Shown here: one piece after another, positions 28,433-50,967 of the stretch
Position numbering within the stretch: the stretch's first letter is position 1
How the letters are laid out: each line of letters starts with the position of its first letter
From: Escherichia coli
GTDB taxonomy: Bacteria; Pseudomonadota; Gammaproteobacteria; Enterobacterales; Enterobacteriaceae
Direction: 5' to 3' (one strand)
Length of the DNA stretch: 64,000 nucleotides
Assembly: GCA_025336685.1 (NCBI GenBank)
Contig: GCA_025336685.1_4717.1
Notes under the pieces: generated by a model
The model's input: the letters and a program-made list of their open reading frames with translations, nothing else
Told to the model about the DNA's origin: nothing
Databases searched by the model: none
Made by a program: the position numbers and the translations under genes

Positions 28433-31400
28433 TTACTTGTAGGCACCACAATGTGCTTTGATGAGGAAAAGCACCGCTTGCATCGGTTTATTGAACTGTT
28501 GCCATAACGTCAATGCCGGATGGAACAACCAATCTTCCAGGCCAAGAACAATACCGTAGTTAACGACATTATTAACATCGTTCTCAACGTTGAGTTCGCT
28601 ATCCAGGAATTTATCGATTGAACGCAGGGCCTGCATGGCGTTGTCGGCAATAAGCCACGCTTCATGCGCTTCACGAGCCGCACGCAGCAATGCTTCCAGT
28701 TCGCCGGTGCTGGCTACCGGTAACTCCTCACTGGTGAGGTCGTCAGAAACCGTAAACTGACGGTTGATACCAGTGTAGATCCACTGCATCAGTTTCGCTG
28801 CTTCCTCGTTCGGGTTGTTACGCGTTGTCGCATAGGTCGCGCTCATTTTCACGATATGCGTTTCACCAAGATACGCTTTGGACCCAACGCCTTTACGATC
28901 GCTGTCTTTCCACGGTTGTACGGTAGCGACCATGAGCTTATCCCATTTCTGAATAGGAATACGCTTCAGACCAACAACCGATCCGGCGGATGTTTCGGAC
29001 TGGTTGCTCTTCCGCACTTCGCTGAGCTCACGATCGATAGCAACGATTAATTCACGCGTCATGTTACCAAGCATTTTGATTTCACCCAACGCAGCGATGA
29101 GCTTCTTCACATCGGTAATAGGTTCACCACCGATGGTAAGATGACGGATGAAACGTTTCAGAATAATCCGTTCTGCTGCTGGGTTACCACGACGCGCTTT
29201 AGCCAACGCTTGCTGTGTTTCGGCGAACAGCTTATCCCATGGAGCCGTAGCGGCGGTATAGTAACGGTGGTTGGTTTCAATCCAGTTACCGATACGGTTG
29301 ACCGCACTCTTAACGGTATCCATGAACCCTTCCATCGCAATTTCGGTGGCTTCGACGTTACCCTGGAAGTTATCAGGACCGATCTCGCGTGCCGCTACCA
29401 GAATACCTTCCACTGCACTCACCGCGTGACGACCGATAGCCAGATTTCGCTGCGCTTCTTCAGCACGCTCAACGAATTCCACTACCGCAGGATCGTCAAC
29501 GATTTCCGCCTCGGCAACAACACGTGTACCTGCATCGCCTTCCAGTGTCTCGATAGTGACAACCGGATCGTTTTCACCAGCAACATCCTGGTACTCTTCC
29601 TGTTTGAGTTCGCCGTTATCGGCCGCTGCGACAGCGGTGAGTATACGGACGGTAACATCACCGAGTTCTTTCGCAGCGAATCCGTAGACGGTACATGCTG
29701 TTGTCGCAAAGTTCATCAGTGTGCGTGTGCGTTTAACGATGTAGCCAACGCCGTAGTCACTACCGTTCTTATCGATGTCGCGGATTAACCGTTCAGCTGT
29801 CTCCTGAAGTTGTGTAGCTGCTTTCAGAAGGTCTTCGTCAAACAGTTTCGTTGACGCATCGATCAGCATATCGACGCTAACGTTAGACGGTACGGCATCA
29901 TCCTGCTGTTTCATGGCGCTAAGTTCATCACGGAACTTACGAATACCGTCTAAAGCGGCGTCGGCGCTATGTCCGAACGCGGCCACGCCAGACATTGTTG
30001 TTGCTGTCAGCATGTCCGTATCAGCGTTTGGACTTTCGCCTTCTTTAAGATCCTTCAGCTGGTCGAAGAACTTACGGGATGCTTCAGCGATACGTTTGCT
30101 GTCTTTTACCGCGTTTACGATTTTATCAACCGATTTAGCGTCGTTCGCAAGCAGCGTGTCGAGTTTGTTCCATTCGATGTCGACTTTCTTTTCATCCGAA
30201 GTATTACTCGGTGGAGGAAGCAGTTTCATCACTGGTGCTGTGCGTTGTTCTTTGGTGAGCTTACCAGCCTTCTCTTCGATTTTCTTTTTATTAACACCGA
30301 AAAGTTTTCTTAGGCGTGCCACGATTGCTTTTAAGAACTTCACAACCGCTTCGTAAACCGATTTCAGAATCTGTTTAAAGCGACCTGGCTGCTTTTCCCC
30401 GTCTTCCAGATTGAGATCGCTATTTAGTGCGATATCAAGCTGTTTGTACGATTCCATGATGTATTCGTCTTTGATTTCAGGACGAATCTCGAAGCTTTCC
30501 ATCGGACCCTCAGCCGGACGGAATTCCATTTTCAGTTCGCCTTGCAGAGTAGGGTCGACAATGGCGATAGCTTCACCCTGACCATCAGCGTTAAAGCGCT
30601 CAGCGTAACGAGTACGACGAACAATAACACTCTTATCCCCATCAAGACGACGTACCACCATGGTGCCAGGAATGTACGGTTGTTCTGTTTCAATGACGGT
30701 TACATCTGTTTCACCTTCACCGAGAATAACAGAAGTGCGCTGTTCAACAACAGGAACATCTAATACACCGCGGGCTTCCAGCTCTTGATGAATTTCGAAC
30801 GACTCTTGTTTCAGATCTTCATCTTCTTCGTTTTCGTCGTCTTCATCGTCACCTTTGGTGGTTTTGGTGTCGGTAGCATCAGCATCCGTGTCTGCGTTGG
30901 TAGCTTCTTCGGACGCAGGTTCGGTGGTGCCGTCCTCGGTAGGCGTTTCATCAGCGTTATCGACGTCAACATCACCTTGCAGTTCTGTTTCCTGAGCAAC
31001 TGCTTCGGCTTTCTGCTCACCGGTGTTACCGTCATTAGCGTCGACAGCAGGTTGTTCGTCAGCGACGGTATCTTCAACCTTTTCTACTTTCTCCACGACA
31101 CGTTTAATCACGGTGACTTTGATGGGTTCTTCCGTTGTTTTGGTTTCTGGTGTTGCGTCGGCTACCGCAGGTGCTGTTTCAACAACAGGTTCTGCTTTTT
31201 CCGGTTCGACGACACTACCTTTAACACCTTCGGTGGTTTCTGCAGGTTGCGCTGCCTGTTCGATTTGTGCCGGATTGGTCGGATCGATGGCATTAGCCGC
31301 ATCCTGAATCTTGTTCTTCAGGTTGTCACGGTCAGCGCTAACGGTCGGGTCATTGGTCACTTTCGGTGCCGGTGTTTCGGTCGGCGCGTTTGCCGGATAC

Positions 31401-31813: not shown

Positions 31814-32920
31814 TTAAAAGTAATATTTCAGCGCCTCGCGAGAGACATCAAGCATAGCCGCCGTTGAATTCGTAAAGAACTCGGCATAGCCCACAAGCGG
31901 CACCTTGATCCACGCGGTATACGCTGTAAGGTATCGAGAAAGGGCTACCATAGCATCATCAGAAGCAGTAGTAACTGACAACTGACCTTGTTGACGATAA
32001 ACGTCGTTAAGTTTCGCTTGTAGATTCCCTGCAATTTCGAGTAACTCGTTGGCGTACTTTTTACGATGGTAACTAACCAGCAAATCAACGCCCGTATTCA
32101 CAGACTCGAGCAACACACCAACTTGTTCTAATGTTGGCATTGTAACCACCATATCCCGTTCAATGGACGGCACATCCTGGACTTCAAACCGTGCGGATTG
32201 AATAGCGAGGGATTGTTGAATTGAACCAGAACCTGAGGTGGTAACCTGATCGAGTCGTAGCGTACGGTTGCCCAGTAACGTTACGTTGACAAGTCTCGAT
32301 TCGTTCAGCGTACTGTAGACTTTATGCAATAACGTATACGCATCACGATTAATCACATCGATTAATGCGGTATCCGTCTGTTTTAAGATAATGTCGAGTG
32401 CTCTATCTAACGTATTAGCGAACTGCTTGAAATCATCACGGAATGACGAAGACAAGAGATATTCGGCGATTGCCAAATTCTGTTTGTATAGCGTATTCCC
32501 GGTTGTGAAATCGAACCCAAAACTGTTCCCATACCGTAGGTGCGGAGCCAACGTCGACGTAGCTTCGAAGCTTTGCGCGATAGGTTTACGACCAACGGCT
32601 TTTGTGTAGTGACGGCGGATGTTACTGAGTTCGAGTTGTAGTGCGCGACTACGATCGATAAACCGTGCGATAAACGCAGTAATGTTCCGCAACGTTGTCC
32701 AGATTGCATCGATGATAGCTTTGATGATTTTCATCGCAAGCTGATTGTACGATTCCATCGTGAGGAGATCAGCACTTTCTGTGGTATAACCGGTCGTCGG
32801 AATACCGCCCGCTTGCTGATAAATAAGCTGATGAATTTGTCGTTGCGTTGCTGTCTCTGGCACAGGTAATGTCTTTAACAAGCTTAACGCTTGAATCTGT
32901 CCGTCATAGGTCTGCGGCAT
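31814..32920 (-). CDS. hypothetical protein with LTMESY motif (about 368 aa)
   Basis: ORF-track start 32971 overlaps upstream gene by 68 nt; ATG at 32920 has GAGGAA SD at 8 nt. Confidence 0.8.
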   Translation of the reverse strand: MPQTYDGQIQALSLLKTLPVPETATQRQIHQLIYQQAGGIPTTGYTTESADLLTMESYNQLAMKIIKAIIDAIWTTLRNITAFIARFIDRSRALQLELSNIRRHYTKAVGRKPIAQSFEATSTLAPHLRYGNSFGFDFTTGNTLYKQNLAIAEYLLSSSFRDDFKQFANTLDRALDIILKQTDTALIDVINRDAYTLLHKVYSTLNESRLVNVTLLGNRTLRLDQVTTSGSGSIQQSLAIQSARFEVQDVPSIERDMVVTMPTLEQVGVLLESVNTGVDLLVSYHRKKYANELLEIAGNLQAKLNDVYRQQGQLSVTTASDDAMVALSRYLTAYTAWIKVPLVGYAEFFTNSTAAMLDVSREALKYYF

Positions 32921-34205
32921 TGCTGGTTTCCTCAAGTTCGAGATGCGCATCAAGATAATCATTAAGACCATCGATGACGTCGCAGACAGTTAACAGGAAT
33001 CGGGCAAAAGCGACCGCCTGGAAGCCGACGACGTTACGCGCGATACCTACACGTTGAACGATAGCGGATGATGCGGTATCGTTGTTATCCATCTGTTGTA
33101 GTAAACGCTCGTAAGGTTGAATCCATTCGTCCTGGTCGGCAAGGCTTGCTTCAAGACAACGTTTAAATTCCAACTGTCGTAGCGTAGACCATAATGTACT
33201 TAATGCGTTGATGATCGCGTTGGTTCCGTCGATAACATCGTTTAACGGTAAGAAACGGAATCCGTCTTTTGCTGATTGGAAAGGTACAGCTTCCCACACA
33301 ACGCTGAACTGCGTTCCTGATGTGTCTTCGATGTTGTGTAATTTAAGGTAGGAAGCACCAACAGGAACGTCAACGACCAGATCGTCTGTTCCGGTAGGTG
33401 TTAACGGCTTCTCGCATAACGCATCGTTGATGACCTCGAGAATATTCTCCCAACAGGCTTCGTTTTCTGCAGCGATACCTTCTTTGTTATCCACTGATGG
33501 TGCTTTTAGTAGCTGCATTAATAACGGATCGAGTTGACGATGCCATGTTGCGAGTATCCCTGTGTTCGTTACGATGTTTTCTGCGGTTTGTTGTAAATCA
33601 GCAATACTGCTTACCGCACCGCCTTTCGGATGAAGATATCGCCAATTGTAAGGAAAGTTCTCCCAGAATGCGTTATCTTCATTAACATCGTATTCAGAAA
33701 TAGTTTTCAACGCAGCCGCTTTCTTTAATAACGGCTTCACCTGACGAACGAATCGACGATAACAGCGATTGCAGATATCGATCGCGTAGCGGTATAACTC
33801 GTTCATGTAAAGCCATAATGCACGGGTTGCTTCTTTTGCGGTCTTGTCAAAACTTTCCATGTTCAAGCTCATCCCGCTGGAAGTTTCCTCTTCCATACCT
33901 TCGATGATGTGGTTTGGATCCATCCCCATCCCGGCTGCTGCGGTCGATGCGATATGTTTGATCGTGCTGATATCGCGTTCTTCAGCCTCAGTCATATCTG
34001 GGATAATATCCAACCTGAGTTTATTTAATGTTTGAAGGTGTTGTTCACCTTCTTTCATCACCATGTTTGTTTCGTCGATTGAGTGAAACTGGTTCTCAAT
34101 ATTACTGGCATCGAGAATATTGCCAGCGATACCGAACGATTCTACAGGTTCATCATCAATCCCTTGAAACAACGATGTCATGGGTTGTTGCAACACGTTT
34201 TCCAT
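32904..34205 (-). CDS. head-internal (inner-body-like) protein paralog (433 aa)
   Basis: ATG with AGGAG SD; acidic N-terminus, conserved ISTIKHIASTAAAGMG and NMESFDK segments shared with the three genes upstream. Confidence 0.85.
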   Translation of the reverse strand: MENVLQQPMTSLFQGIDDEPVESFGIAGNILDASNIENQFHSIDETNMVMKEGEQHLQTLNKLRLDIIPDMTEAEERDISTIKHIASTAAAGMGMDPNHIIEGMEEETSSGMSLNMESFDKTAKEATRALWLYMNELYRYAIDICNRCYRRFVRQVKPLLKKAAALKTISEYDVNEDNAFWENFPYNWRYLHPKGGAVSSIADLQQTAENIVTNTGILATWHRQLDPLLMQLLKAPSVDNKEGIAAENEACWENILEVINDALCEKPLTPTGTDDLVVDVPVGASYLKLHNIEDTSGTQFSVVWEAVPFQSAKDGFRFLPLNDVIDGTNAIINALSTLWSTLRQLEFKRCLEASLADQDEWIQPYERLLQQMDNNDTASSAIVQRVGIARNVVGFQAVAFARFLLTVCDVIDGLNDYLDAHLELEETSNAADL

Positions 34206-34311
34206 TTGGGACTCCTACGTAGGGAAATCTTGGCGGGTGATCATGTCCGCCATTTACCTTCTGAACCGTTGATTCAGAAGTCAAAAGATAACCGGATACC
34301 GGCGTCATAAA

Positions 34312-34353: not shown

Positions 34354-35643
34354 TTATGCTTTTTCGGTCGCTGCGTTGAAGTATTTCGCAGCAGCAAATA
34401 CAGCATCCGCATACTGACGTACAGAGGCACGGAGGATCTTAGTTCCTAATACAGAGCTTAAACGAGCCATTTCTGTTACAGCTGTGATATAAGGACGTAC
34501 GGTTTCACGATCAGCCTCAGGTAACTTGTCGAGCATTTCGCCCCACTTCGTTTTGATCTGCATTCCGTTGAGTTTAGCGTCTCGTCCTACAGAGCGCGCC
34601 AAACTTTCAACTTTATGCAAATACGTCGGTTCCACCATACGGAATGCCTTCAGATATGCAGTCAATGCGCTTTTCAGCTCATTCCCATCGTGGAAAATAT
34701 TCGCATTTTCGATTTTATCTGTTACGGTGTCAACAACTTCAATATGAACATCCTTCACCAAAGCACATGCTTTAACGACATCCTTCTCTTTTTCTAGCGC
34801 ATCCAACCCTTTAACGACATATTGTTTTCCACCACTTTCTGGAAGTCTGAACGCCCTCAGTGCGGCTTTAGTGGCCTGAAGATACTCGTCTAGGACACGA
34901 TCAAGCGTTGTTAAATCAGTTAGGACATTAATGTCGTAGTTGATATCGCCGATCTTAGTAAATAAGAAATCTGATATCGTCGCACTTGCAGCCAGTTGTT
35001 CGATATGTTTGCTAACGGATGCCGCATCAACAGATTTTGCGTTCGGGAACATATTAACCATATTCCCGGTAGGCTTCTCTAGTTGTTTGATCTGACGTTC
35101 CCCTTTATTGACTTCGGATGCAATTTTGGTGATCTCAGCATAAGCCAGAACGAGATTCTTGAACAACATCTGGAACAGTTTGAACAGTTGCTCAGCAATA
35201 TTTGCAATGATTACCCAAACTGCGTATAACGCTTGTGCTGCGCGTTCTTTAAAGCCTTCCAGTACGATAGCCTGTCCTTCCACTAATTTATCATTAGCCT
35301 GGAACATGTCTTCATCAGACATCCCCAGGTTTGCTGCTGATGTCGAAGCGATCTGACGGATAAGTGCGACGTCGCTCACACGTGCTTCCGAGATCGTTGG
35401 TGCGATCATGTACGCTGTATCTTCCAGCGTTGCTGAGGTACGCACTGCAATTTCAGCCAGTTCGCTGGATTCATCGATTGTCTCGTCGGTATGTCGAATC
35501 ACCAACTCAACTTCACCCTCTTCAATTTCTGCGTTAGGATCGTGTTGCTCCGTCGGAATCGTCGCGAGAAGATCTTCGGCGCTGAGCAATGCGAGTTCGA
35601 ATGCGTTTTTATTGACGTTGTCAAAAAGAGAAATACGTGCCAT
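34354..35643 (-). CDS. head-internal (inner-body-like) protein paralog (429 aa)
   Basis: ATG with AGGAA SD; VSDVALIRQIASTSAANLG and IVLEGFK segments. Confidence 0.85.
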   Translation of the reverse strand: MARISLFDNVNKNAFELALLSAEDLLATIPTEQHDPNAEIEEGEVELVIRHTDETIDESSELAEIAVRTSATLEDTAYMIAPTISEARVSDVALIRQIASTSAANLGMSDEDMFQANDKLVEGQAIVLEGFKERAAQALYAVWVIIANIAEQLFKLFQMLFKNLVLAYAEITKIASEVNKGERQIKQLEKPTGNMVNMFPNAKSVDAASVSKHIEQLAASATISDFLFTKIGDINYDINVLTDLTTLDRVLDEYLQATKAALRAFRLPESGGKQYVVKGLDALEKEKDVVKACALVKDVHIEVVDTVTDKIENANIFHDGNELKSALTAYLKAFRMVEPTYLHKVESLARSVGRDAKLNGMQIKTKWGEMLDKLPEADRETVRPYITAVTEMARLSSVLGTKILRASVRQYADAVFAAAKYFNAATEKA

Positions 35644-35652: not shown

Positions 35653-36969
35653 TTAACCTTTGGTATAGGCTTTAACGAGAGTGTTGATAAATGAAGTCAG
35701 TGCGCGAAGATACTGGTACGCGAACTGGTTTTCAATACGGTTCTCTTTACCGCAAAGCAGAATCGCGCGCTTAACGAGCTTAGGATAGATCTCGATGTAC
35801 GGTTGGTAGCTTGCATCAAAATTCTGCTCGTTGAAGCGTTTCATGGTGATTTCCTGGATACGCTCCATGGTGCGAATTTTATTGCGAGAGAATATCTCAG
35901 AGAAAGCACGTCCGCGTTTTGTTACCATCAACAGATCTTTCGCGAACGTCAGTTGTCGAACGCTACGCAAATCGTCAGGTGTTGGTAGGACGTACGTTTC
36001 TGGATCGTTATCCCATTCAACATCTTCAACGACAATATCCAAGTCGAGGTAACGTTTAACAGCATCGATGATATTGTCTTTTGACGCATCGAATTCTTTC
36101 AAGAAGACTGCGCCGTTGATGTAGCGGATACGTTTTCCGGAAACCGTTGGGGTGATAACGTCAGCACCTTCCACAGAACCACGATTTTCCAGCGTCGATT
36201 TGACAGCGTTCAAGAAAGTCAGATAATCAACGGGAAGTTTTTCAACCTTATCTAAATGGAAGTCGATGATGTTTAATCCTAACCCATCAATAACTGAATA
36301 ACCGTCCGATTTAAGGAACATCTGATTGAAGGTATCGATGTTGCTTTTCAGCGTGTCTACACCACCAACGTTGTTACGGTTAGGGAAAAGTGTTCGCCAC
36401 TCTGCTTTAAACGCGACCTCTTTATTTTCCGTGTATTTGCCTTTGGGCATTTGTTCGAGGGCTGCAATAGCTTTCTGAAAATTGCGTGTCTCGTCATAAA
36501 CAAGATGGGTAAGCTTCTCGAAGGCTGCTGCCAGAGTCAGGGCAATATCAACGATGATATCCCAGATCTTTTTCATGGCTTTTACAACGGTGTCTTTAAA
36601 CCCTTCAACAACCAAAGCTTCTCCAATCTCAACACGGTCGGTTGGAGTCAGCAATGCTTCGGAGGGCAAGCCCAAAGCAATCGATGCGGATTCTTGAATG
36701 TTACGAACCAACGCAACATCACTGTAGTTAGCCGATTCGATAGTCGGGGCAACATCAAAACTGATTTCCCGCAGTGCTTCAACAGCAGGGAAAGCACGAT
36801 CAAGTGCATCTTCATGTTCGTCGATTGTCGCCAAACGTAACTCAACACCATCAGCATCGATGACTTCAGCGGTAGGCTCCACAGCAAGCGCTTCAGCAAC
36901 AATAGGATCTTTTTCAAACGCTTCGAGGCTGATATCGCCTTGGGTCGCAAATAGCGGTATGTGTACCAT
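35653..36969 (-). CDS. head-internal (inner-body-like) protein paralog (about 438 aa)
   Basis: ORF-track start 36993 is TTG; ATG at 36969 has GGAGA SD at 7 nt; YSDVALVRNIQESASIALG and LVVEGFK segments. Confidence 0.85.
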   Translation of the reverse strand: MVHIPLFATQGDISLEAFEKDPIVAEALAVEPTAEVIDADGVELRLATIDEHEDALDRAFPAVEALREISFDVAPTIESANYSDVALVRNIQESASIALGLPSEALLTPTDRVEIGEALVVEGFKDTVVKAMKKIWDIIVDIALTLAAAFEKLTHLVYDETRNFQKAIAALEQMPKGKYTENKEVAFKAEWRTLFPNRNNVGGVDTLKSNIDTFNQMFLKSDGYSVIDGLGLNIIDFHLDKVEKLPVDYLTFLNAVKSTLENRGSVEGADVITPTVSGKRIRYINGAVFLKEFDASKDNIIDAVKRYLDLDIVVEDVEWDNDPETYVLPTPDDLRSVRQLTFAKDLLMVTKRGRAFSEIFSRNKIRTMERIQEITMKRFNEQNFDASYQPYIEIYPKLVKRAILLCGKENRIENQFAYQYLRALTSFINTLVKAYTKG

Positions 36970-37071: not shown

Positions 37072-38397
37072 TTACTGCTGTGCTGCGTCAGCCGGTTTCT
37101 CGGCCGCCTGGCCGCCGTACTCTTTCAGCATTTTAGCAGCGCCATCCAGGACAGCGTTACCTGCCTGAACACCGTATTTCATCAGACCAGTCTGTGGGTT
37201 CACGTAGCAGGAACGTGCGTCTTTCAGTGCAGACAGTACAGCTTGAACACGCTGTTTTTCCTGAGCGGAAACTTCGCCTTTCTTAGACAGATCAGCTTCC
37301 ATTGCGTCGCCGAATTTAACAGCGTCTTTGAAGCCCTGGGATTTCTTACCGATGTTGCCTTTCAGCGCCAGCAGTTTGTCAGCCAGTACTTCAACACCGC
37401 TAACCGCAGCGGCCAGCTGATTCAGGGACAGGACGGTAGCTTCAACTTCTTTTGCTTCACCGGAGCGTTCCCAGGTTACTTTACCATCGTTGGCTTTGAA
37501 ACCCCAGCCCGCAGGACCAGCAACGTCAGCAATCGCCGGAGCGTTCAGTTTATCGGCGTACTCGGTGTGAGATTTAGCAACAACAGTGTTGACGAATTTA
37601 TCAGCACGATCGTCAGCAGCCTTCATTGCTTTCTCGAAGGTGTCGGCGATTTTGGTCGCACCGGTAACCAGATCGTCGCCACCGATGTAACCTGAAATGC
37701 CACTACCCAGGGTAACTTTGGCATTTTTAGCAGCGCCTTTACGCTTGGCGATCATTTCTTTCAGTTTAGCAGCGCGTGCTTTCAGTTTGGTCGCGCCGTC
37801 GAAGATGCGATCCATGAACTTCACGAAGGTTTCCCAGGAAGTTTTCAGGAAGTTCTTGATGGTTGCCCACAGTTTCTGCCACCATTTTTGTTCTTCCAGG
37901 AAGATCATGTTGGTTGCATCGTAACGGGAAGCAGAACCACCGAAGCTTTCGAAGGACGGCATGGTTTCCGGCAGTTTGAAACCGATAGTACCACACAGGC
38001 GTTTCAGGTTACGCATGTGTTCCTGAGCGGTTTGTGCAGACATACCACCGTCTTTCAGGTAGCTTTCGGTTGCAACAACGGTTTCCGTCAGTTCATCCAT
38101 GGCTTCATCCATGGCTTCTGCGGTTTCGTCGTCTTTTGCAATTTCGATAACAACAGCGTCAACCTGCTCGATATCGCCACGAACTTCGATAGCCAGTTCG
38201 GTTTCAGCTGCAGTATCTTCAGCGATTTCAGCGCGTTCGGTCAGTTCAGCTACAACGGTTTCATCTGCTGCTGCTGCGGCATCAGCTGCCGGTTCTGCTT
38301 CAACGGTTGCCGCTGCATCCGGATCGATCTCAGCAGCCAGTTGAACCAGCTGTGCGTTAGATGGATTTGCGACAAGACGATCAAAAATAGAAGGCAT
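37072..38397 (-). CDS. abundant head-internal protein paralog, codon-optimised (441 aa)
   Basis: ATG at 38397 with AAAGGAAA SD; strongly optimised codon usage like the capsid candidate; Ala/Glu-rich acidic N-terminus; SFESFGG motif. Confidence 0.9.
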   Translation of the reverse strand: MPSIFDRLVANPSNAQLVQLAAEIDPDAAATVEAEPAADAAAAADETVVAELTERAEIAEDTAAETELAIEVRGDIEQVDAVVIEIAKDDETAEAMDEAMDELTETVVATESYLKDGGMSAQTAQEHMRNLKRLCGTIGFKLPETMPSFESFGGSASRYDATNMIFLEEQKWWQKLWATIKNFLKTSWETFVKFMDRIFDGATKLKARAAKLKEMIAKRKGAAKNAKVTLGSGISGYIGGDDLVTGATKIADTFEKAMKAADDRADKFVNTVVAKSHTEYADKLNAPAIADVAGPAGWGFKANDGKVTWERSGEAKEVEATVLSLNQLAAAVSGVEVLADKLLALKGNIGKKSQGFKDAVKFGDAMEADLSKKGEVSAQEKQRVQAVLSALKDARSCYVNPQTGLMKYGVQAGNAVLDGAAKMLKEYGGQAAEKPADAAQQ

Positions 38398-44712: not shown

Positions 44713-45257
44713 GTATCGTAACACGATTCCTACGCAGCTTATCGGAGTGGATCAAGAACGATATCATCACATTCAGGAATTTCTGTTATGAGGAAACAGA
44801 GATTTCACTGTATCCTAAACAATCGTTGGGGTATGTGGATGTTATTGTCGAAAACGGATTGGAAACAACGCTTCCTGCCGCTCTATCGTTCAACGTGACG
44901 CTTTACTTACCAGCTAAGCAATACGCGGATTTGGATCTCCGTCAAGTCCTTCAAGCGATGGTATCGAAAGTCATCAACGAATGCTTAACGTCCCGTACGG
45001 TGGCTAAAGCAGAAATGATCGCGATGATTCGTGAGGAGGGTGGTGACGACATCCTTAACGTTGAAATCGATGATTTTGGACCAGGTAAGAACCTCAGTGT
45101 TTATACTGCGAAGAACGATGGTGTTCGCTGCGCGGTGAAGAAAGAGCTTTATGTGAAAGCGGATGGTATCTTGTCCGTACGTGAAGCGATCGATGTAAGT
45201 TTTGTGAAACATGCACAAAGCAACAGTTCGGCATTAGCGCAAGGCCTTCGTGTCTAA
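44709..45257 (+). CDS. hypothetical protein (182 aa)
   Basis: TTG start overlapping upstream stop (TTGA); no in-frame ATG until aa 88; start uncertain. Confidence 0.65.
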   Translation: MSIVTRFLRSLSEWIKNDIITFRNFCYEETEISLYPKQSLGYVDVIVENGLETTLPAALSFNVTLYLPAKQYADLDLRQVLQAMVSKVINECLTSRTVAKAEMIAMIREEGGDDILNVEIDDFGPGKNLSVYTAKNDGVRCAVKKELYVKADGILSVREAIDVSFVKHAQSNSSALAQGLRV

Positions 45258-45319: not shown

Positions 45320-48112
45320 TTATCTTACGTTGCTGCTATTCTGCTGTTCGCTGAACCAACAGTACACCTTGAGATCGGTACCGTATTTCAATGCGATATA
45401 CGCATTCAGTGCGGCACAGAACAAAGACGCGAATGCCCATATCAGTGAAGGATCAACATCTTCCGTTACCACCCGGGGAGTATTATCCGGTTCCCATGAT
45501 GGAGAACTGTCCATGAACGTCGTGTACCATTCCCGCCGTTGTTCTTCAGTGGTAAAGTCACTATGAGGCTCCAGCGCTTCTTTTGCCAGACGTCGATATT
45601 CGAACACATACGTTGCGAAAGCCGATGAGTTACCAGATTCGCCTTCATAGTTCGGATCCACCGCACAACAGAGTTCTGTGGAATTTAACAAAGCAATCGC
45701 TTGTATGATGCTGTCGGCAGTGCCTGCACTATAGAGCTCGATAGACCGCGAAAGCTTTTCACAGAACGTATTTAACGCGGTAGGATTGGACACCTGAAGG
45801 TCGAGGCCTAATGTCCACGGATAGTTACTGAACACACCCGTAAACCGCGGCATAACACCCAACAGATGTTGTCCGATTACGGCACGGTTATAAACAGCCC
45901 GGTTATAGACTTGAAACGCAGCCTCCAAGGCTTGGTTATAATGACGACGAAGTTCATCACGCGAGTTGCGGAATCTGTTTGCCGCAAGACTTGTGGCTGC
46001 GACGCTACAAACATCGTAATCGGTGGACGAGAGCACGGTTTCGTTAAGATCGAACGCTTCCTGTTTCAATGTTCCGCTAACCGCTGTCGCTTCGCTGTTT
46101 GCTTTATCGACAACAGTACTCAAAGCGTTGATGTAACGTTTAGCTCGGACCTCCAACCATTGTGCGATGCCGAGAATATCCACCGCAGCTTTAGCAAGAT
46201 CGCGGGCGTTCACGATTTCGTTCTTCAACGCACCTAAACCTTTATTCTCAGGCGAAGAGGCTTGTTGACGAATCATGCTGTTCAACATGGTAAGCAGATT
46301 ATCCAACTCATGCCCACTGACCTTGTTACGCGCATCGGTAACTGGTCCTTGCAGGAATTTACGGCAACCGTCGTTGTATCGAATCAGTTTATCCACATCG
46401 ATAGATTCGTTCGTGGATTCCTTGAACTGATCCTTCAATTCTTCACGGTAGTCATGGATTTCACTTGCGAGATTATCGATAGTGATGCCGTTATGTCCAA
46501 GAAGAACTTTATTGAAGTTACCTTTCTCGAATGCAAGAGCAAGACCTTCACGAATCTTAGCGAGTTTATCCTGATCGAGTTCGCGACCGTTCGATAGCTC
46601 TTTCACTTCCGAGCTGATTAGTGCCGCAACGTTACCCAGATTGTCGGTAACCCCTTTGAACGCTCCCGACCAGATCGTTCCTGCTCCAGCGTATTTCGCA
46701 ATGGTCTGAATACCGACGGTGTGCAACGACGCTAAACGTTTCTTTGTGCCTTCGGTAAGCAGAGCGTCTTTAGCTCGCGTAAGTTGACTGTTATTCGCTT
46801 CCGCCTGCTGAATCGCTGCTTTCGCACTTCCATTACGCCAGCTCTTAACCAGCCAATCAACCAAACGTTTTAGGATATTGACGGTGTATTCCATTGTCCG
46901 CCGTAACGTTTCCCACGCGCTTTCTGCGGTATAGATGCCGTACCCTTCCATCTTCGTTGGGTCAAAGAAACCTTCCTGCACGAGATCAGTACGTGTGTAG
47001 CCATCAGCAGCTTCTACTTCCGCCTGGGTTTTATCCCAGAAGTCGTCGCTCTTTGCAGCAACCGCTGTATCTTTAACGTCCAGGATGATCTGACCAACCG
47101 TTTGTGCAAACAGCAAGGCCGCACGTACCGATTGTGCGAACATCCGCTGATATTTGATTCGAACGCATTGCATCTGGGTTAGCAGATTCAGTTGTGCGAT
47201 CCCATCCAAGGTGCTATCCTGAGCAAGCCCTTCGGCTTTAGCGATAACCTGTTTTACACGTTCAGCGACATCACCGTACTGCTGGCAAACATCCCGCAGA
47301 ATACGTGCCGCGAAGACCCCGGTACCGATATAGTTCAATAGGTCTTTTAACGACCATTCGGTCGGGCAATCGGTCGGCGCAATAGGGAGTAAGCAACCAT
47401 CACCGTCCATGAATCTCTCTAATGCGCTAATATCCTGATTTTCTACGCTCATGGGGATATCGACATCAGCCGCTTGCGGATCCAGCATCTGTTGTAGGAT
47501 GTTGGTATCGGCTTGTACAAGCGTCACAAGCGCTTGGCTGTGTGCGATTATTGGTAACGCAGGTGACCATACTGCAGCAAGCTTGTCGGCGTGACGTTGA
47601 ATGGCGTACCCCATATCCTCGATCACATCGGGATGCTCGATAACCCCCTGAAGCGTTTGATGTAGCTCACTGAGTTGCTGAGACAGATCGACCATCATGG
47701 TGTTGAAGGTTTCGCCATCCTCTTTATGGTTGTCCAGACGCTCGAGTTCATGTCGAAGCAATGTGACGAGCTGTCCGCTGCCTTCTTGCTTCAGCTTGCT
47801 TTCCATTAACGTAATGGCTTTATCGACGATCCGACACGCTTCATGAAAACCGGTTGTGGAAGGAAGCTCTGTCCATAACGCCAGCGGTTTACCGTCAAGG
47901 GCTTCCGACATCGATAACGAAAGCATAGACAGTTGTTGACGTGATACTTGCTGTTCACGGTGTAATGTTTCTTTTAACGCCAGGAGATCGTCAAGAAACG
48001 CGCCGTTAAGGGTGGTCGTACGTGGTGTTGAATTAATACCGTCAGTTAACGATTCAAGCACCAGGAGACCGTTATCAGCTGAAGAGAGTCCCGCGGCAAG
48101 ATATTTGTTCAT
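45320..48112 (-). CDS. large hypothetical virion-associated protein (about 930 aa)
   Basis: ORF-track start 48169 is GTG inside the hairpin region; ATG at 48112 has GGAG SD; N-terminal LLVLES motif. Confidence 0.85.
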   Translation of the reverse strand: MNKYLAAGLSSADNGLLVLESLTDGINSTPRTTTLNGAFLDDLLALKETLHREQQVSRQQLSMLSLSMSEALDGKPLALWTELPSTTGFHEACRIVDKAITLMESKLKQEGSGQLVTLLRHELERLDNHKEDGETFNTMMVDLSQQLSELHQTLQGVIEHPDVIEDMGYAIQRHADKLAAVWSPALPIIAHSQALVTLVQADTNILQQMLDPQAADVDIPMSVENQDISALERFMDGDGCLLPIAPTDCPTEWSLKDLLNYIGTGVFAARILRDVCQQYGDVAERVKQVIAKAEGLAQDSTLDGIAQLNLLTQMQCVRIKYQRMFAQSVRAALLFAQTVGQIILDVKDTAVAAKSDDFWDKTQAEVEAADGYTRTDLVQEGFFDPTKMEGYGIYTAESAWETLRRTMEYTVNILKRLVDWLVKSWRNGSAKAAIQQAEANNSQLTRAKDALLTEGTKKRLASLHTVGIQTIAKYAGAGTIWSGAFKGVTDNLGNVAALISSEVKELSNGRELDQDKLAKIREGLALAFEKGNFNKVLLGHNGITIDNLASEIHDYREELKDQFKESTNESIDVDKLIRYNDGCRKFLQGPVTDARNKVSGHELDNLLTMLNSMIRQQASSPENKGLGALKNEIVNARDLAKAAVDILGIAQWLEVRAKRYINALSTVVDKANSEATAVSGTLKQEAFDLNETVLSSTDYDVCSVAATSLAANRFRNSRDELRRHYNQALEAAFQVYNRAVYNRAVIGQHLLGVMPRFTGVFSNYPWTLGLDLQVSNPTALNTFCEKLSRSIELYSAGTADSIIQAIALLNSTELCCAVDPNYEGESGNSSAFATYVFEYRRLAKEALEPHSDFTTEEQRREWYTTFMDSSPSWEPDNTPRVVTEDVDPSLIWAFASLFCAALNAYIALKYGTDLKVYCWFSEQQNSSNVR

Positions 48113-48171: not shown

Positions 48172-50967
48172 TTAAGCTAATTTACCGAAACCGGCTTTCT
48201 GCAGTTTCTCGTTGATGATTTTCGCTTCAGCGAAGACGTAATCACGATACGCAGTGACTAACCCATCCACCCGTGAACGCAAGGCTTCTTCGAAGCTATA
48301 CCACGCAGCGATTTCACGAATCTGTGCGTTGATATAATCAACGGTTGAGCGAAGCTCGGTTGCATTTTCTTGCGGAATGGCTTTCACCTGGCGAGCAACG
48401 TCATTTAAACGACGGAACTGTGTTTCGATTTCTTTAAACTTACTGTCGGCAAGTTTGCTGAATTCGTCACCGGAACGGGTGAATAACAGATAGCTGTTGC
48501 CGTCAAGCGCTGTCGCTAACTGCTGAAGAACGTTGGTATCCGGATACACAGGAGTACCGCTTTGCAGTACTTTCTCACCGAATTCCGCGAAGTCCTTCGG
48601 CGGTAAGTGCGCAGACGTTGTTAACTCGTTGAAACGGAAAGTCAGCGAATTATCATACAGCATCCGGTACGCTTCCATACCCTGTTGCATGGTACCGGCC
48701 AGGTTAGCCAGACGCGGAGCAATCTCACCCTCTTTAGCGCGTTTCTGGTCTTCTAACGCCCCTTCGAGTTCTTTACACTGGTCGTTCAGATACACGATAC
48801 GATCGGGACGCAGACGACGCATCTCACGAAGAATAGTATCCAGCTTACCTTCCTGGAAATAACCCAACGTTAAAGACGTACACGCTTGCTGAAGACGATC
48901 GAACACCGGCAAGGTCACCATCTCTTTACGGATACCATCAACAATCGCAGAAACAGCCGAAAGTTTCTGTTCGGTGGTTAATGGGGCGTCAGAGACCGAC
49001 TTGCTGGGCGCGCCAACAACGTTACGCATTGCGTCGGTATCCTCGGTTTTATCAACCTCTTTACGAACATTCTCATCAGGAACATAAACGTTCGCGTTAC
49101 GTTTCGCCTGCTTGATGGCGTCGTTGGCTGCTTTTTCGGTGGCCGCTACGCTATCGGCACGTTTCTTCAAGAGTTCGATAATCCAGAGCAACAGACGACG
49201 AATCGCGGTATAGGCCGTCGTGATGATGACACCGATAACAGCCATCTTCATGATACCGAACGATTCCATGGTCGGCTCTAACGCCTGGTCTGGCATATAC
49301 CGTTCACGCAGTTCCAGATAGATCTGCTCATCTGGTTTGCTGATCTCACCACGATGCGAAGTCCGATAGATGGCTTCGTCAATCTCAACAAGATCTTTGC
49401 GTGCCTGACGGTCTGTTTCGGTCAGATAAGCGCAGCCGGATACATCGTCTTCAAAACTTTCGAACTTGAAAAAGTCATTGACATCGATCTTGATCTTCTT
49501 CGCTTCATTATCGACATCAATAAAATCTTTTTTCTGTGCTTGATATTCCGCTTTGATGTCGTTCACCGGCTTCAACGCACGTTCTTTTAATGCCTGTACG
49601 ATCTGTTTCCAGTCAGCGTCGCGCTCAAGAACAAGGAAGTAATTCTTGAGTTCAAAAGCACGGTAACGCGCAACGAGTTGTTCTACCTGAACATGAGCGA
49701 GTTGCACGTCCATCAGCCAACGCGACATTGCCGAGATCAAACGACTATAAGCAAGTAATGTTTGATACGTCAGCTTCATGTGCTTTTCGTACAGCTCAAT
49801 ATCGCCGTCTTGAATATCAGCCGTCGGGTTCATTTCCTTCGTTGCTTTGAAGATTTGTTCGGCTTCATTTAAAGTCTGTTCGAATTTGACTTCATTAAAC
49901 GCGTCGAACGGCTCAGCCAACACCGCCATTCGATCGCGAAGTTCACGAACCCAGGCGTCTTTATTGTTGCGAATAGCTGCGTCATCGTGAAGTTCGGTTT
50001 GATGTTTCTGTACCCATTCTTCGACGATATCAGCGGCGGCAACAATTCCGGTACCATCGGAAACTAACGGAACAACTCCAGCAAGTACGCCTACACATGC
50101 CGGAGTTTTCCAGTAATCGTTCAAAGCGTTTCTGAATTCAACGATGGATTGTACGTTTGGTACCATATCCAAAAACGTACTGCCGTTACGGCTCATTGTC
50201 GTTACGATATCAGCGAATTCCTTCTGCTTGGCGGTAACAAAAGGAACCAGGACCATAAGCCATTCAGCAACCGATTTCGCTTTTTCTTTCAGGTTCTTGT
50301 CTGCGATTTCTTTAAGACTAATCGCACCACCATAACCTGCAAGCTCTTTATATACGTCGCTAAGTGTCATCTGTTTATCCAACATTTCTTTGAAACGTGG
50401 ATAATCAGCACCTAACGCATCGATAATATCGTTGATTACGTCGTCGGTTGTCGCGATAAACTTCTTCGTATCGACGTTTGAATATTTCCAGACGTACCGT
50501 ACGGCTTTCTTGATTCCTGCAAAGATAAACGCCCAAATACGCTTGATGAGTTCCCAGACTTTCTTCGCGCCATCGACAAACAGTTTAGAGACCTTGGCAA
50601 CGAATCCTTCCTGTACCAACTCAACGCCGTTACGTGATGGGATTTCGGTGAAGAAAGCATCCGGTAGTTGTTTCGGGAACGCGTCGCCAAGACGCATACG
50701 CAGTTCGGGTACATCAGCACGAGAAATACCCCGTGTTACTAACTGTTCGTGAAGACGAACGTTTTCTTCGCCAGAGGTCACGAATTGGTTAACATCGAAG
50801 GAAACCATCGCTTCCTGATCTTCGGTGGTGACGACGCTTGAACCATCGCTGGTTTGGATGTCTTCGTCAGGGAACGCCATGAGCATACCGTGACGCATTT
50901 CAACCACTCCGTAATCGGTTGCTAAACCGAATTCGTTGTGGTCAGGGGTAATAACTGGGATACTCAT
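48172..50967 (-). CDS. large hypothetical virion-associated protein (931 aa)
   Basis: ATG at 50967 in ATGA overlap; N-terminal VELVQEGFVAK...KKVWELIKRIW segment resembles the head-internal paralog motif. Confidence 0.9.
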   Translation of the reverse strand: MSIPVITPDHNEFGLATDYGVVEMRHGMLMAFPDEDIQTSDGSSVVTTEDQEAMVSFDVNQFVTSGEENVRLHEQLVTRGISRADVPELRMRLGDAFPKQLPDAFFTEIPSRNGVELVQEGFVAKVSKLFVDGAKKVWELIKRIWAFIFAGIKKAVRYVWKYSNVDTKKFIATTDDVINDIIDALGADYPRFKEMLDKQMTLSDVYKELAGYGGAISLKEIADKNLKEKAKSVAEWLMVLVPFVTAKQKEFADIVTTMSRNGSTFLDMVPNVQSIVEFRNALNDYWKTPACVGVLAGVVPLVSDGTGIVAAADIVEEWVQKHQTELHDDAAIRNNKDAWVRELRDRMAVLAEPFDAFNEVKFEQTLNEAEQIFKATKEMNPTADIQDGDIELYEKHMKLTYQTLLAYSRLISAMSRWLMDVQLAHVQVEQLVARYRAFELKNYFLVLERDADWKQIVQALKERALKPVNDIKAEYQAQKKDFIDVDNEAKKIKIDVNDFFKFESFEDDVSGCAYLTETDRQARKDLVEIDEAIYRTSHRGEISKPDEQIYLELRERYMPDQALEPTMESFGIMKMAVIGVIITTAYTAIRRLLLWIIELLKKRADSVAATEKAANDAIKQAKRNANVYVPDENVRKEVDKTEDTDAMRNVVGAPSKSVSDAPLTTEQKLSAVSAIVDGIRKEMVTLPVFDRLQQACTSLTLGYFQEGKLDTILREMRRLRPDRIVYLNDQCKELEGALEDQKRAKEGEIAPRLANLAGTMQQGMEAYRMLYDNSLTFRFNELTTSAHLPPKDFAEFGEKVLQSGTPVYPDTNVLQQLATALDGNSYLLFTRSGDEFSKLADSKFKEIETQFRRLNDVARQVKAIPQENATELRSTVDYINAQIREIAAWYSFEEALRSRVDGLVTAYRDYVFAEAKIINEKLQKAGFGKLA

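What the first reader, a model, noticed from the sequence alone, without database searches (positions are those of the whole stretch)
28433..50967. Proteins sharing an acidic N-terminal segment and a hydrophobic-x-E|(S/G)(F/Y) motif: candidate prohead-protease substrates
Four tandem paralogs (32904-34205, 34354-35643, 35653-36969, 37072-38397) share acidic N-termini, a conserved (V/I)S(D/T)(V/I)..IR.I..S.(S/A)..(L/M)G segment and then NMESFDK / IVLEGFK / LVVEGFK / SFESFGG followed by an amphipathic helix. The same motif-plus-helix appears near the N-termini of 31814-32920 (LTMESYNQ), 48172-50967 (LVQEGFVAK), 45320-48112 (LVLES) and twice in 28433-31798. Prohead proteases of T4 and phiKZ-like phages cleave after Glu in short (L/I/S/A/G)-x-E motifs, so these look like processed head-internal proteins. 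No protease gene was recognised in this window.
Basis: partly seen in the sequence, partly recalled or inferred. Interest (0 to 1): 0.6.

Follow-up and report, generated by a model that had tools for sequence, protein, structure and literature searches.

The report
Protease-processed internal head proteins, Goslar-like phage
These genes encode the packaged internal head proteins of a Goslar-like jumbo phage, and the shared Glu-(Ser/Gly)-(Phe/Tyr) motif marks where the phage's head-maturation protease most likely trims them, a known kind of processing whose cut sites had not been mapped in this lineage.

Summary
The window is about 91% identical to Escherichia phage Goslar, a nucleus-forming jumbo phage. 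The eight ORFs are Goslar gp53-gp58, gp64 and gp65. E[SG][FY] occurs 17 times in them against 2.4 expected; other window proteins show no enrichment.

gp53-gp58 belong to the phiKZ internal-head-protein family (Pfam PF12699). They sit beside homologs of phiKZ gp87-gp91. A 2026 preprint finds all of them, plus gp64 and gp65, in Goslar virions.

A profile search found 52 diverged relatives with two near-invariant glutamates. One is the gp55/56/57 motif. The other is 'ESFGG', which is the gp58 motif. Both align with cuts verified by mass spectrometry in Salmonella phage SPN3US gp53 and gp54.

The preprint's partly stored peptide table shows N-terminal peptides depleted or absent in gp56-58, gp64 and gp65. 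It also holds a gp64 peptide ending exactly at ...LKQE before AF. Some gp53 copies lie inside intact peptides.

The protease is encoded outside the window. The Goslar protease carries the same motif (TME|GF) at the position expected for self-cleavage.

Verdict: correct interpretation, and a new member of a known kind. The cut sites here lack the small third residue before the Glu that phiKZ-type sites have.

The parts
37072..38397 (-). gp58 homolog (441 aa). This is the dominant PF12699 internal head / ejection protein, at ~2150 copies per Goslar virion.
   Evidence: Pfam PF12699 at 71.1 bits against a cutoff of 27. 96% identical to Goslar gp58. Copy number from the preprint. The AF2 model is helical, mean pLDDT 78.
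37936..37959 (-). gp58 'site 1': PSFE150|SFGG, the family-wide ESFGG motif. It lies in a loop between the propeptide helices and the long first helix of the domain.
   Evidence: Glu is present in 46 of 52 family representatives, followed by S33 F36 G27 G24. It aligns with SPN3US gp54 AQE124|SY, a verified cut. It is in the loop 139-154 of the AF2 model. It is conserved in the 44%-identical relative L006.
37888..37905 (-). gp58 'site 2': IFLE168|EQ. This is the column that aligns with the motif of gp55, gp56 and gp57.
   Evidence: The Glu is invariant in the four-paralog alignment and present in 50 of 52 representatives. It aligns with SPN3US gp53 E125|GW and gp54 E137|SL, both verified maturation cuts.
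35653..36969 (-). gp57 homolog (438 aa), a PF12699 paralog. Site 2 is VVE122|GF at nt 36598-36612. The leader site is ISLE16|AF at nt 36916-36933.
   Evidence: Pfam 27.8 bits against a cutoff of 27. BLASTP to gp56 gives E 2e-17. Three upstream tryptic peptides are absent from the stored peptide table while a downstream one is present.
34354..35643 (-). gp56 homolog (429 aa), a paralog. Site 2 is VLE129|GF at nt 35251-35265.
   Evidence: BLASTP to gp57 and gp55. The site is conserved as LVLE|GFQEK in L006 at 25% identity. The upstream peptide is absent and a downstream one has area 31,600.
32904..34205 (-). gp55 homolog (433 aa), a paralog. Site 2 is NME117|SF at nt 33849-33863. The leader site is PVE22|SF at nt 34134-34148.
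   Evidence: BLASTP to gp56 and gp57 gives E 1e-8. L006 has LNME|GF at the same place.
31814..32920 (-). gp54 homolog (368 aa), a short PF12699-like protein. TME56|SY is at nt 32747-32761, followed by an amphipathic helix.
   Evidence: Pfam 17.1 bits, below the cutoff. The junction profile scores 14.4 bits, E 9e-5 among 56 window proteins. The site is not conserved in L006.
28433..31798 (-). gp53 homolog (1121 aa), a large PF12699-type protein. It has a leader NLE17|SG and four motif copies: KQE332|SF, PME434|SF, IME449|SY, AME823|GF.
   Evidence: PHROG 'internal head protein' matches residues 818-928. The junction profile scores 22.5 bits, with matches at 475-516 and 815-862. N-terminal peptides are abundant in virions. 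Intact peptides span IME|SY and AME|GF.
45320..48112 (-). gp64 homolog (930 aa), a virion protein (~110 copies in Goslar) that the Goslar preprint's text does not discuss. Candidate cuts are VQE380|GF, KME389|GY and LKQE685|AF (nt 46052-46069). The leader is VLE20|SL.
   Evidence: Copy number from Table S4. The semi-tryptic peptide ANSEAAAVSGTLKQE has area 14,100 against 5,460 for the tryptic form. Peptides from residues 99-347 are absent, while one starting at 432 has area 224,000.
48172..50967 (-). gp65 homolog (931 aa), a vertex-binding-complex protein (phiKZ gp86 homolog). Motif copies are VQE120|GF, KFE503|SF and TME568|SF. The last is followed by a hydrophobic, membrane-helix-like segment.
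   Evidence: The role and the phiKZ gp86 homology come from the cryoEM preprint. Peptide areas are 451 (residues 83-91), 2,280 (462-472) and 105,000 (736-746). The syntenic SPN3US gp47 has ALE111|SW followed by a transmembrane helix.
15058..17280 (-). Major capsid protein (gp41 homolog), a reference substrate of the same protease. Its propeptide is ~150-157 residues, and candidate cuts are GCE150|S, ESE152|E and SEE153|L.
   Evidence: CryoEM shows no density for the first 157 residues. Sequence. Propeptide peptides have areas 0-1,260 against 84,400-570,000 for mature peptides.

Best explanation
The region is the internal-head-protein module of a Goslar-like chimallivirus.

What the proteins are. 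gp53-gp58 are phiKZ_IP (PF12699) proteins. gp65, and probably gp64, are capsid-interior proteins of related helical architecture.

How each precursor is built.
- A short N-terminal leader ending in a Glu.
- An acidic propeptide of roughly 100-150 residues.
- A conserved short helix.
- One or two Glu sites at the start of the long amphipathic first helix of the mature domain.

Proposed mechanism. After the precursors are co-assembled into the prohead, the phage's S80-family serine prohead protease cuts C-terminal to these glutamates. In Goslar this protease is the phiKZ gp175 homolog Goslar_00223, encoded outside the window. The propeptides are released or partly retained. The mature helical domains stay in the head and are later ejected with the DNA, or, for gp65, stay bound under the vertices.

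What is shown.
- Family membership and synteny.
- Motif enrichment.
- Conservation of the Glu sites.
- Their alignment with verified SPN3US cuts.
- Virion presence of the orthologs.
- N-terminal peptide depletion.

What is inferred.
- That each listed Glu is actually cut in this phage.
- That the propeptide serves as a targeting or scaffolding element.
- That the Goslar enzyme reads P4 Leu/Ile, P2 Met/Gln/Val/Leu, P1 Glu, P1' Ser/Gly/Ala and P2' Phe/Tyr, rather than a small P3.
For: - Identity. The window is 91% identical in DNA to Goslar, and every ORF maps to gp53-58, gp64 or gp65.
- Family. Pfam PF12699 hits gp58 (71 bits) and gp57 (27.8). PHROG 'internal head protein' hits gp58, gp53 and gp54.
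- Synteny. The gene order is the same as phiKZ gp84-gp97 and SPN3US gp45-gp54.
- Virion presence. All eight Goslar orthologs are detected, and gp58 is reported to be injected into the host.
- Motif enrichment. 17 observed against 2.4 expected, with negative controls flat.
- Conserved sites. 52 representatives at 50% identity or less were found. Site 2 Glu is present in 50 of 52, with P1' G21/S18. Site 1 Glu is present in 46 of 52, followed by SFGG.
- Verified counterparts. Site 2 aligns with SPN3US gp53 AQE125|GWKETLKDLFER and gp54 ARE137|SLWDDIK. Site 1 aligns with gp54 AQE124|SY. All three were verified by semi-tryptic or chymotryptic peptides.
- Leader site. It matches phiKZ gp93 SLE13|S and gp162 E17|R, both verified.
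- Divergent relative. In L006, at 25-44% identity, the sites persist in the gp58-, gp56-, gp55- and gp53-like proteins.
- Peptide table. Depletion in gp58, gp57, gp56, gp64 and gp65 is comparable to the capsid-protein propeptide. One gp64 peptide ends at LKQE685.
- Protease. Goslar_00223 matches phiKZ gp175 at E 4e-23 and keeps His77/Ser153/Asp178. Its only motif copy, SPTME197|GF, aligns with phiKZ SPALE|NY just after the catalytic domain. SPN3US gp245 self-cleaves nearby, at AQE203.
- Structure. The AF2 model puts site 1 in an exposed loop and site 2 near the N-terminal end of the long helix.
Against: - P3 is Ser/Ala/Gly in only 3 of 16 motif copies. The phiKZ (S/A/G-x-E) and SPN3US (A-x-E) enzymes require a small P3.
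- The capsid-protein cut region (GCE|SE.., residues 150-153) has no aromatic at P2', so the motif is not a general requirement.
- gp53 is not simply trimmed. N-terminal peptides are abundant (79,000 and 11,000). EIRPEIKDEYIMESYK spans IME|SY intact (17,600). EIGPDNFQGNVEATEIAMEGFMDTVK spans AME|GF, and no peptide ending at that Glu was found.
- The peptide complementary to the gp64 cut (AFDLNE...) was not found. The dataset also contains other non-specific semi-tryptic peptides.
- Only peptides sorting alphabetically from A to 'ELK' were readable. None of the diagnostic peptides starting with S or G could be checked.
- The virion sample still holds traces of propeptides and many host proteins.
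- The gp54 site is not conserved in L006.
- gp64 and gp65 match the junction profile only weakly (9.4 and 3.8 bits).
Confidence: 0.8

Rival explanations
1. The Glu-(Ser/Gly)-(Phe/Tyr) motif is kept for structural reasons, for example to start and cap the long amphipathic helix of the fold. Under this reading, most copies in the Goslar lineage are no longer protease sites. Processing, if any, would occur elsewhere in the N-terminal region at small-x-Glu sites.
For: - P3 is not small in 13 of 16 copies.
- Site 2 lies inside a predicted helix in the AF2 model.
- Intact peptides span two gp53 copies.
- The capsid-protein cut region lacks the motif.
Against: - The homologous positions are physically cut in SPN3US.
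- The motif recurs in proteins with no detectable sequence similarity to PF12699 (gp64, gp65), and in the protease itself at the position expected for self-cleavage.
- A gp64 peptide ends exactly at a motif-like Glu.
- Depletion boundaries in gp58, gp64 and gp65 bracket motif copies.
Confidence: 0.1
2. The motif plus amphipathic helix is mainly a functional element of the ejected proteins. It might bind membrane or lipid when the early infection vesicle forms, or mediate self-assembly of the inner body. Its nearness to processing sites would then be incidental.
For: - Strongly amphipathic or hydrophobic segments follow many copies. The one after gp65 TME568|SF looks like a transmembrane helix.
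- phiKZ PF12699 proteins co-localise with membrane-derived early vesicles.
- The role of these proteins is called unknown in the Goslar preprint.
Against: - This does not explain the invariant Glu, nor the match to verified cut sites.
- The idea is compatible with the main explanation rather than an alternative to it.
Confidence: 0.07
3. The recurrence is a chance or compositional effect in Glu-rich proteins.
Against: - 0 of 500 shuffles reach the observed count.
- Asp-, reversed- and aliphatic-P2' controls are flat.
- The sites are conserved at 25-44% identity and across 52 representatives.
Confidence: 0.01

Closest known systems
SPN3US gp53 and gp54 ('paralog family A', PF12699), the major ejection proteins processed by prohead protease gp245
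   Same: - Same Pfam family and same place in the head gene block.
- Acidic N-terminal propeptides of about 125-137 residues.
- Verified cuts at E|GW, E|SL and E|SY that align with site 1 and site 2 here.
- An amphipathic helix follows the cut.
   Different: - SPN3US sites are strictly Ala-x-Glu. Here P3 is Val, Asn, Lys, Thr or Pro.
- Goslar-like phages have six family members with one dominant (gp58). SPN3US has two, about equally abundant.
- Sequence identity is too low for BLASTP.
phiKZ inner-body proteins gp92-gp97, gp162 and gp163, processed by gp175 (MEROPS family S80)
   Same: - Syntenic operon, PF12699 domain and multiple tandem paralogs.
- A leader cut (gp93 SLE13|S, gp162 E17|R).
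- Proteolysis separates the N-terminal region from the helix-rich domain.
- The proteins are ejected into the host.
   Different: - The phiKZ motif is S/A/G-x-E.
- phiKZ gp93 has ALE|NY and SLE|DL where Goslar has SFE|SF and FLE|EQ.
- The phiKZ gp93 N-terminal fragment is a visible capsid cement. No such role has been shown for Goslar.
- No ordered inner body was seen in Goslar.
phiKZ gp86 / SPN3US gp47, a processed vertex-binding or head protein (counterpart of gp65)
   Same: - Same syntenic position next to the gp85 and gp84 homologs.
- phiKZ gp86 is processed, and its sequence contains STE|GF and SQE|AV before a Trp-containing helix.
- SPN3US gp47 has ALE111|SW followed by a transmembrane helix, like gp65 TME568|SF.
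   Different: - gp65 is more than twice as long and has an extra domain.
- BLASTP similarity is not significant (E 0.6).
T4 internal proteins IPI-III and Alt, with a capsid-targeting sequence removed by gp21
   Same: Works alike: an N-terminal targeting peptide is removed after Glu by a related prohead protease, and the cargo is later ejected.
   Different: - T4 targeting sequences are 10-20 residues. Here the propeptides exceed 100 residues.
- There is no sequence or fold relationship.
- The T4 motif is Leu/Ile-x-Glu.

Membership tests
Pfam PF12699 (phiKZ_IP, internal head proteins) | Match to the Pfam model above the gathering score (27 bits) | tested here: met
   gp58 scores 71.1 bits over the full length and gp57 scores 27.8 bits. 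Near-identical gp57 homologs carry a precomputed PF12699 hit.
Pfam PF12699 (phiKZ_IP, internal head proteins) | The same match for gp53, gp54, gp55 and gp56 | tested here: not met
   gp54 scores 17.1 bits, below the cutoff. gp53, gp55 and gp56 give no hit at E 0.01. They join indirectly: by BLASTP to gp57, by PHROG 'internal head protein' for gp53 and gp54, and by the junction profile. The preprint reports the shared predicted fold.
Pfam PF12699 (phiKZ_IP, internal head proteins) | Position in the head gene block, downstream of the gp89, gp90 and gp91 homologs | tested here: met
   The gene order matches phiKZ gp87-97 and SPN3US gp48-54. L006 has a PhiKZ_gp91 domain gene just upstream.
Pfam PF12699 (phiKZ_IP, internal head proteins) | Helix-rich fold of the mature domain | tested here: met
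   The AF2 model of gp58 has mean pLDDT 78 and pTM 0.70, with long helices and a small beta element. Only gp58 was modelled here.
Pfam PF12699 (phiKZ_IP, internal head proteins) | Packaged inside the head and ejected into the host | not testable with these tools
   This rests on published virion mass spectrometry and microscopy for the roughly 96%-identical Goslar orthologs.
Substrates of the S80 prohead protease (phiKZ gp175 / SPN3US gp245) | Glu at P1, at positions homologous to verified cuts | tested here: met
   Glu is present in 50 of 52 representatives at site 2 and 46 of 52 at site 1. Both align with SPN3US gp53 E125 and gp54 E124 and E137.
Substrates of the S80 prohead protease (phiKZ gp175 / SPN3US gp245) | Small residue (Ser/Ala/Gly) at P3 | tested here: not met
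   Only 3 of 16 motif copies have one. Among those is gp58 S-F-E150.
Substrates of the S80 prohead protease (phiKZ gp175 / SPN3US gp245) | Physical evidence of cleavage: loss of the propeptide and semi-specific peptides | tested here: inconclusive
   N-terminal peptides are depleted or absent in gp56-58, gp64 and gp65. One gp64 peptide ends at LKQE685. Peptides starting with S or G were not in the stored part of the table, and gp53 copies are seen intact.
Substrates of the S80 prohead protease (phiKZ gp175 / SPN3US gp245) | A cognate protease encoded by the phage | tested here: met
   None is in the window. In Goslar it is Goslar_00223, which matches phiKZ gp175 at E 4e-23 and keeps the catalytic His, Ser and Asp. 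The rest of this phage's own genome is not available.
phiKZ gp86-type vertex-binding-complex protein (gp65) | Sequence or structural homology to phiKZ gp86 | tested here: inconclusive
   BLASTP gives E 0.61 over 80 residues, and the synteny fits. The assignment rests on the cryoEM preprint.
T4-type capsid-targeting-sequence proteins | A 10-20 residue N-terminal targeting peptide ending in Leu/Ile-x-Glu | tested here: not met
   The inferred propeptides are 117-168 residues in gp55-58. Short leader sites exist at Glu16-24, but they are followed by the long acidic region.

The most novel reading that the evidence does not exclude
In the Goslar lineage the prohead protease may have shifted its recognition. 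Instead of a small P3 residue it would read P4 Leu/Ile, P2 Met/Gln and a primed-side Ser/Gly/Ala followed by Phe/Tyr. The same 'cut site plus amphipathic helix' cassette would then mark the propeptide boundary in three classes of head protein: PF12699 proteins, the vertex-binding protein gp65 with its neighbour gp64, and the protease itself. That would give a sequence rule to predict the whole processing map of these heads, and a tag for loading foreign cargo.
Probability: 0.35. Interest if true: 0.45.

Novelty: new member of a known kind. Interest (0 to 1): 0.3.

Why it matters
- The internal proteins of nucleus-forming jumbo phages enter the host with the DNA, and their roles are still called an open question.
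- Knowing where the precursors are cut defines the mature species that are packaged, and which parts act only during assembly.
- No processing map was found for Goslar, which is an E. coli model for this phage family.
- The predicted sites can be checked directly against proteomics data that already exist.
- A departure of the protease's specificity from phiKZ and SPN3US would bear on how these enzymes and their many substrates co-evolve.
- The general phenomenon is already well established, so the gain is incremental.

Tried and rejected
- tblastn of gp58 against the phage collection found only Goslar and one weak Pseudomonas phage hit, so it gave no diversity.
- The word-indexed homolog search with gp57 listed only relatives at 94% identity or above, which is useless for conservation.
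With P0125 it found nothing in viral contigs.
- The original phiKZ proteolysis paper is not held under the id I guessed for it (PMC3323674). phiKZ sites were therefore taken second-hand.
- The diagnostic peptides that start after the Glu (SFGGSASR, GFKER, GFKDTVVK, SFDK, SYDQLAMK, GFVAK) were searched for and not found. The stored peptide sheet stops at 'ELK...' with 7,976 rows missing, so this is not evidence of absence.
- phmmer with phiKZ gp175 found nothing in the window. It also found nothing in Goslar 39.6-85 kb or 135-185 kb, before the hit at 203 kb.
- The phiKZ-type pattern [SAG]-x-E is too common to be informative: 90 observed against 89 expected.
- Widening the motif to E|A[FYW] adds sites that are clearly not cut, for example gp53 AHE|AW, which is seen intact at area 71,400.
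Full report
WHAT THE WINDOW IS

Bases 32904-38397 are 91.1% identical to Escherichia phage vB_EcoM_Goslar, the only phage in the collection that matches. Goslar is a nucleus-forming jumbo phage. The Goslar annotation maps the eight ORFs one to one:

| Window coordinates (minus strand) | Goslar gene |
|---|---|
| 28433-31798 | gp53 |
| 31814-32920 | gp54 |
| 32904-34205 | gp55 |
| 34354-35643 | gp56 |
| 35653-36969 | gp57 |
| 37072-38397 | gp58 |
| 45320-48112 | gp64 |
| 48172-50967 | gp65 |

All are 'hypothetical protein' in GenBank. The genes between them are annotated as weakly similar to phiKZ ORF087, 088 and 089.

CHECK OF THE OBSERVATION

- Motif count. E[SG][FY] occurs 17 times in 5,118 residues of the eight proteins, against 2.4 +/- 1.6 expected. 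No shuffle of 500 reaches that. The other window proteins have 11 against 8.2 expected.
- Controls. D[SG][FY], E[SG][LIVM], the reversed pattern and the phiKZ-type [SAG]-x-E are all flat.
- Acidity. The regions upstream of the motif in gp55-58 carry net charge -18 to -27.
- Helix. Eight of the 16 copies are followed by a segment whose helical hydrophobic moment exceeds the 90th percentile of the same proteins, and a ninth lies just under it.
- Paralogy. gp55, gp56 and gp57 are significantly similar over their N-terminal ~110-200 residues. gp58 is not detectable by BLASTP.
- Alignment. In the four-way alignment of the N-terminal parts, the invariant residues are an Asp-Glu pair, one Glu and a Trp 14 residues after it.
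- That invariant Glu is the motif Glu of gp55 (NME117|SF), gp56 (VLE129|GF) and gp57 (VVE122|GF).

WHAT THE PROTEINS ARE

- Pfam PF12699 ('phiKZ-like phage internal head proteins') hits gp58 at 71 bits, gp57 at 27.8 bits (cutoff 27) and gp54 at 17 bits.
- PHROG families called 'internal head protein' hit gp58, gp53 (residues 818-928) and gp54.
- The gene order matches phiKZ gp84-gp97 and SPN3US gp45-gp54.
- A preprint of April 2026 on the Goslar virion (bioRxiv 10.64898/2026.04.21.720040) states that gp53-gp58 share the PF12699 fold. It finds all of them in virions: gp58 ~2150 copies, gp53 ~330, gp54-57 ~50-70.
- It reports that the capsid protein lacks density for its first 157 residues.
- gp64 appears only in its table, at ~110 copies.
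- The preprint does not analyse cleavage sites.

THE MOTIF IN THE WIDER FAMILY

A profile of the four N-terminal regions, searched against 1.84 billion representatives, found 52 proteins. Aligned to the profile, they show two near-invariant glutamates.

- Site 2 is the gp55/56/57 column. Glu is present in 50 of 52. P1' is Gly 21 / Ser 18. P3 is Ala 21 / Ser 13 / Val 10. P4 is Ile, Leu or Val. It is followed by K-(D/E) and, further on, a Trp-containing helix.
- Site 1 lies 24 columns upstream. Glu is present in 46 of 52, followed by Ser 33, Phe 36, Gly 27, Gly 24. This is 'ESFGG', the gp58 motif. gp55-57 lack it.
- A third site sits in the first ~25 residues. [SAG][LIVMF]E is found there in 36 of 52 proteins, against 14% of control windows. 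In the window it appears as gp53 NLE17|SG, gp57 ISLE16|AF, gp58 LAAE23|ID and gp64 VLE20|SL.

LINK TO EXPERIMENT

The family profile aligns site 2 with SPN3US gp53 AQE125|GWKETLKDLFER and gp54 ARE137|SLWDDIK. It aligns site 1 with gp54 AQE124|SY. These are maturation cuts of prohead protease gp245, found by semi-tryptic or chymotryptic peptides. The propeptides are 125 and 137 residues (PMC10052503, PMC5694885).

The leader site corresponds to phiKZ gp93 Glu13|Ser14 and gp162 Glu17|Arg18, both used to validate the phiKZ capsid model (PMC11297242). The phiKZ paralogs are described as proteolysed during packaging.

A DIVERGENT RELATIVE

A metagenomic contig (L006) carries the same array at 25-44% protein identity. 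The motif persists there:

| L006 protein | Sites kept |
|---|---|
| gp58-like | TTE\|SY and PSFE\|SFGG |
| gp56-like | LVLE\|GF |
| gp55-like | LNME\|GF |
| gp53-like | ELKQE\|SY, DLKQE\|SF, LAKE\|GF, LKTE\|GF, and LVME\|GM at the position of AME823\|GF |

The gp54 site is not kept.

DIRECT EVIDENCE FROM PUBLISHED GOSLAR PROTEOMICS

The preprint's peptide sheet is stored only for peptides sorting from A to 'ELK'. I could therefore test only peptides that start with A to E. Numbers below are peak areas.

| Protein | Upstream / N-terminal peptides | Downstream / C-terminal peptides |
|---|---|---|
| Capsid protein gp41 (calibration) | 102-118: 1,260 and 514; 67-85: 0 | 570,000 and 84,400 |
| gp58 (protein total 10.8 million) | 55-72: 4,880; 115-128: 9,180 plus minor forms | only missed-cleavage forms stored: 7,850, 7,920, 168 |
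| gp57 | three peptides: 0 | 33,300 |
| gp56 | 0 | 31,600 |
| gp55 | 52-62: 1,130 | 129-139: 217 |
| gp64 | three peptides in 99-347: 0 | 432-446: 224,000 |
| gp65 | 83-91: 451; 462-472: 2,280 | 736-746: 105,000 |

- For gp64, the semi-tryptic peptide ANSEAAAVSGTLKQE (14,100) exceeds its tryptic form (5,460). That places a C-terminus at LKQE685, before Ala-Phe.
- gp53 behaves differently. N-terminal peptides are abundant (79,000 and 11,000). Intact peptides span IME|SY (17,600) and AME|GF (541).
- The peptide complementary to the gp64 cut was not found. Other non-specific semi-tryptic peptides exist in the data.
- Overall this supports processing of gp56-58, gp64 and gp65. It argues that not every motif copy is cut. 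It does not fix the exact sites.

THE PROTEASE

- No relative of phiKZ gp175 is in the window.
- In Goslar it is Goslar_00223, at 203 kb (phmmer E 4e-23). The catalytic His77, Ser153 and Asp178 are conserved.
- Its only copy of the motif, SPTME197|GF, aligns with phiKZ SPALE|NY just after the catalytic domain.
- SPN3US gp245 removes its own C-terminus nearby, at AQE203. The same paper reports C-terminal self-cleavage for phiKZ gp175.
- This ties the motif class to the enzyme itself, by inference.

STRUCTURE

An AF2 model of gp58 has mean pLDDT 78.

- Residues 1-56 are disordered and acidic.
- Propeptide helices span 52-138.
- Site 1 lies in the loop 139-154.
- Site 2 lies 13 residues into the long helix 155-218.

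| Protein | Score (bits) |
|---|---|
| gp53 | 22.5 |
| gp54 | 14.4 |
| gp64 | 9.4 |
| gp65 | 3.8 |
| Best non-target | 2.4 |

So gp53 and gp54 share the module. For gp64 and gp65 the resemblance is suggestive only.

HOW THIS LINEAGE DIFFERS

Across the 16 copies:

- P3 is Ser, Ala or Gly only 3 times.
- P2 is Met 7 times, against a background of 2.3%.
- P4 is Leu or Ile 8 times.

phiKZ uses S/A/G-x-E and SPN3US uses A-x-E. The capsid-protein cut region (GCE|SEE, residues 150-153) has a small P3 and no aromatic P2'. The enzyme may therefore accept both kinds of site.

VERDICT

The proteins are members of a known family. Their processing is a known phenomenon in related phages, and their presence in Goslar virions was published in 2026. 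What is new is modest:

- a site-level prediction for the Goslar lineage;
- the recognition that two different conserved sites were merged;
- partial proteomic support;
- a likely departure from the small-P3 rule.

Noticed in passing
window 39654-40167, 41218, 43375, 44625-44747: There are clusters of 1-2 base insertions and deletions relative to Goslar. They break the reading frames of the gp60, gp61 and gp63 homologs. gp63 is one 2994-base gene in Goslar but three ORFs here (42263-43378, 43375-44712, 44709-45257). In Goslar these are virion proteins, so the indels look like assembly or sequencing errors rather than true pseudogenes.
   Followed up: partly
window 51437-52747 (-): The gp67 homolog (436 aa) carries an HEIGH zinc-metalloprotease-like motif and a hydrophobic C-terminal stretch. 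It matches only a PHROG of unknown function. Its Goslar ortholog is in virions at about 48 copies. It sits where phiKZ gp84 and SPN3US gp45 sit, and SPN3US gp45 is itself a processed head protein.
   Followed up: no
Goslar MK327938 203033-203839 (L009:15726-16532, -): This is the Goslar prohead protease (S80 family). Its only E[SGA][FYW] site is SPTME197|GF, at the position expected for C-terminal self-cleavage.
   Followed up: partly
[not shown]
   Followed up: no
proteins P0001-P0120 (homologs of window 35653-36969): 133 hits were found, and all 120 listed are 94-98% identical. They include contigs of about 237-248 kb in assemblies labelled Salmonella, Shigella, E. coli and Enterobacter. Goslar-like phages are common in sequencing data from enterobacterial isolates.
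   Followed up: no
L006 (ENA ERZ27271673 k141_32367) 128-13315: This divergent relative has three rather than four mid-size paralogs and a 1666-residue gp53 homolog. LKQE|S(F/Y) occurs twice in it, at 299 and 586. That matches gp53 DLKQE|SF and gp64 TLKQE|AF in the window.
   Followed up: partly
window 11455-13251 (-), 15058-17280 (-): The gp39 homolog has QDVE33|SY near its N-terminus, followed by VDRLWRN. It may be a further substrate. The capsid protein has LSME39|SA early in its propeptide.
   Followed up: no
Goslar gp53 residues 444-459 (window gp53 about 437-452): The semi-tryptic peptide EIRPEIKDEYIMESYK starts after ...PMESF, two residues beyond the motif Glu. This could reflect trimming after a cut at PME|SF, or a chymotrypsin-like side cut. 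It is unresolved.
   Followed up: no
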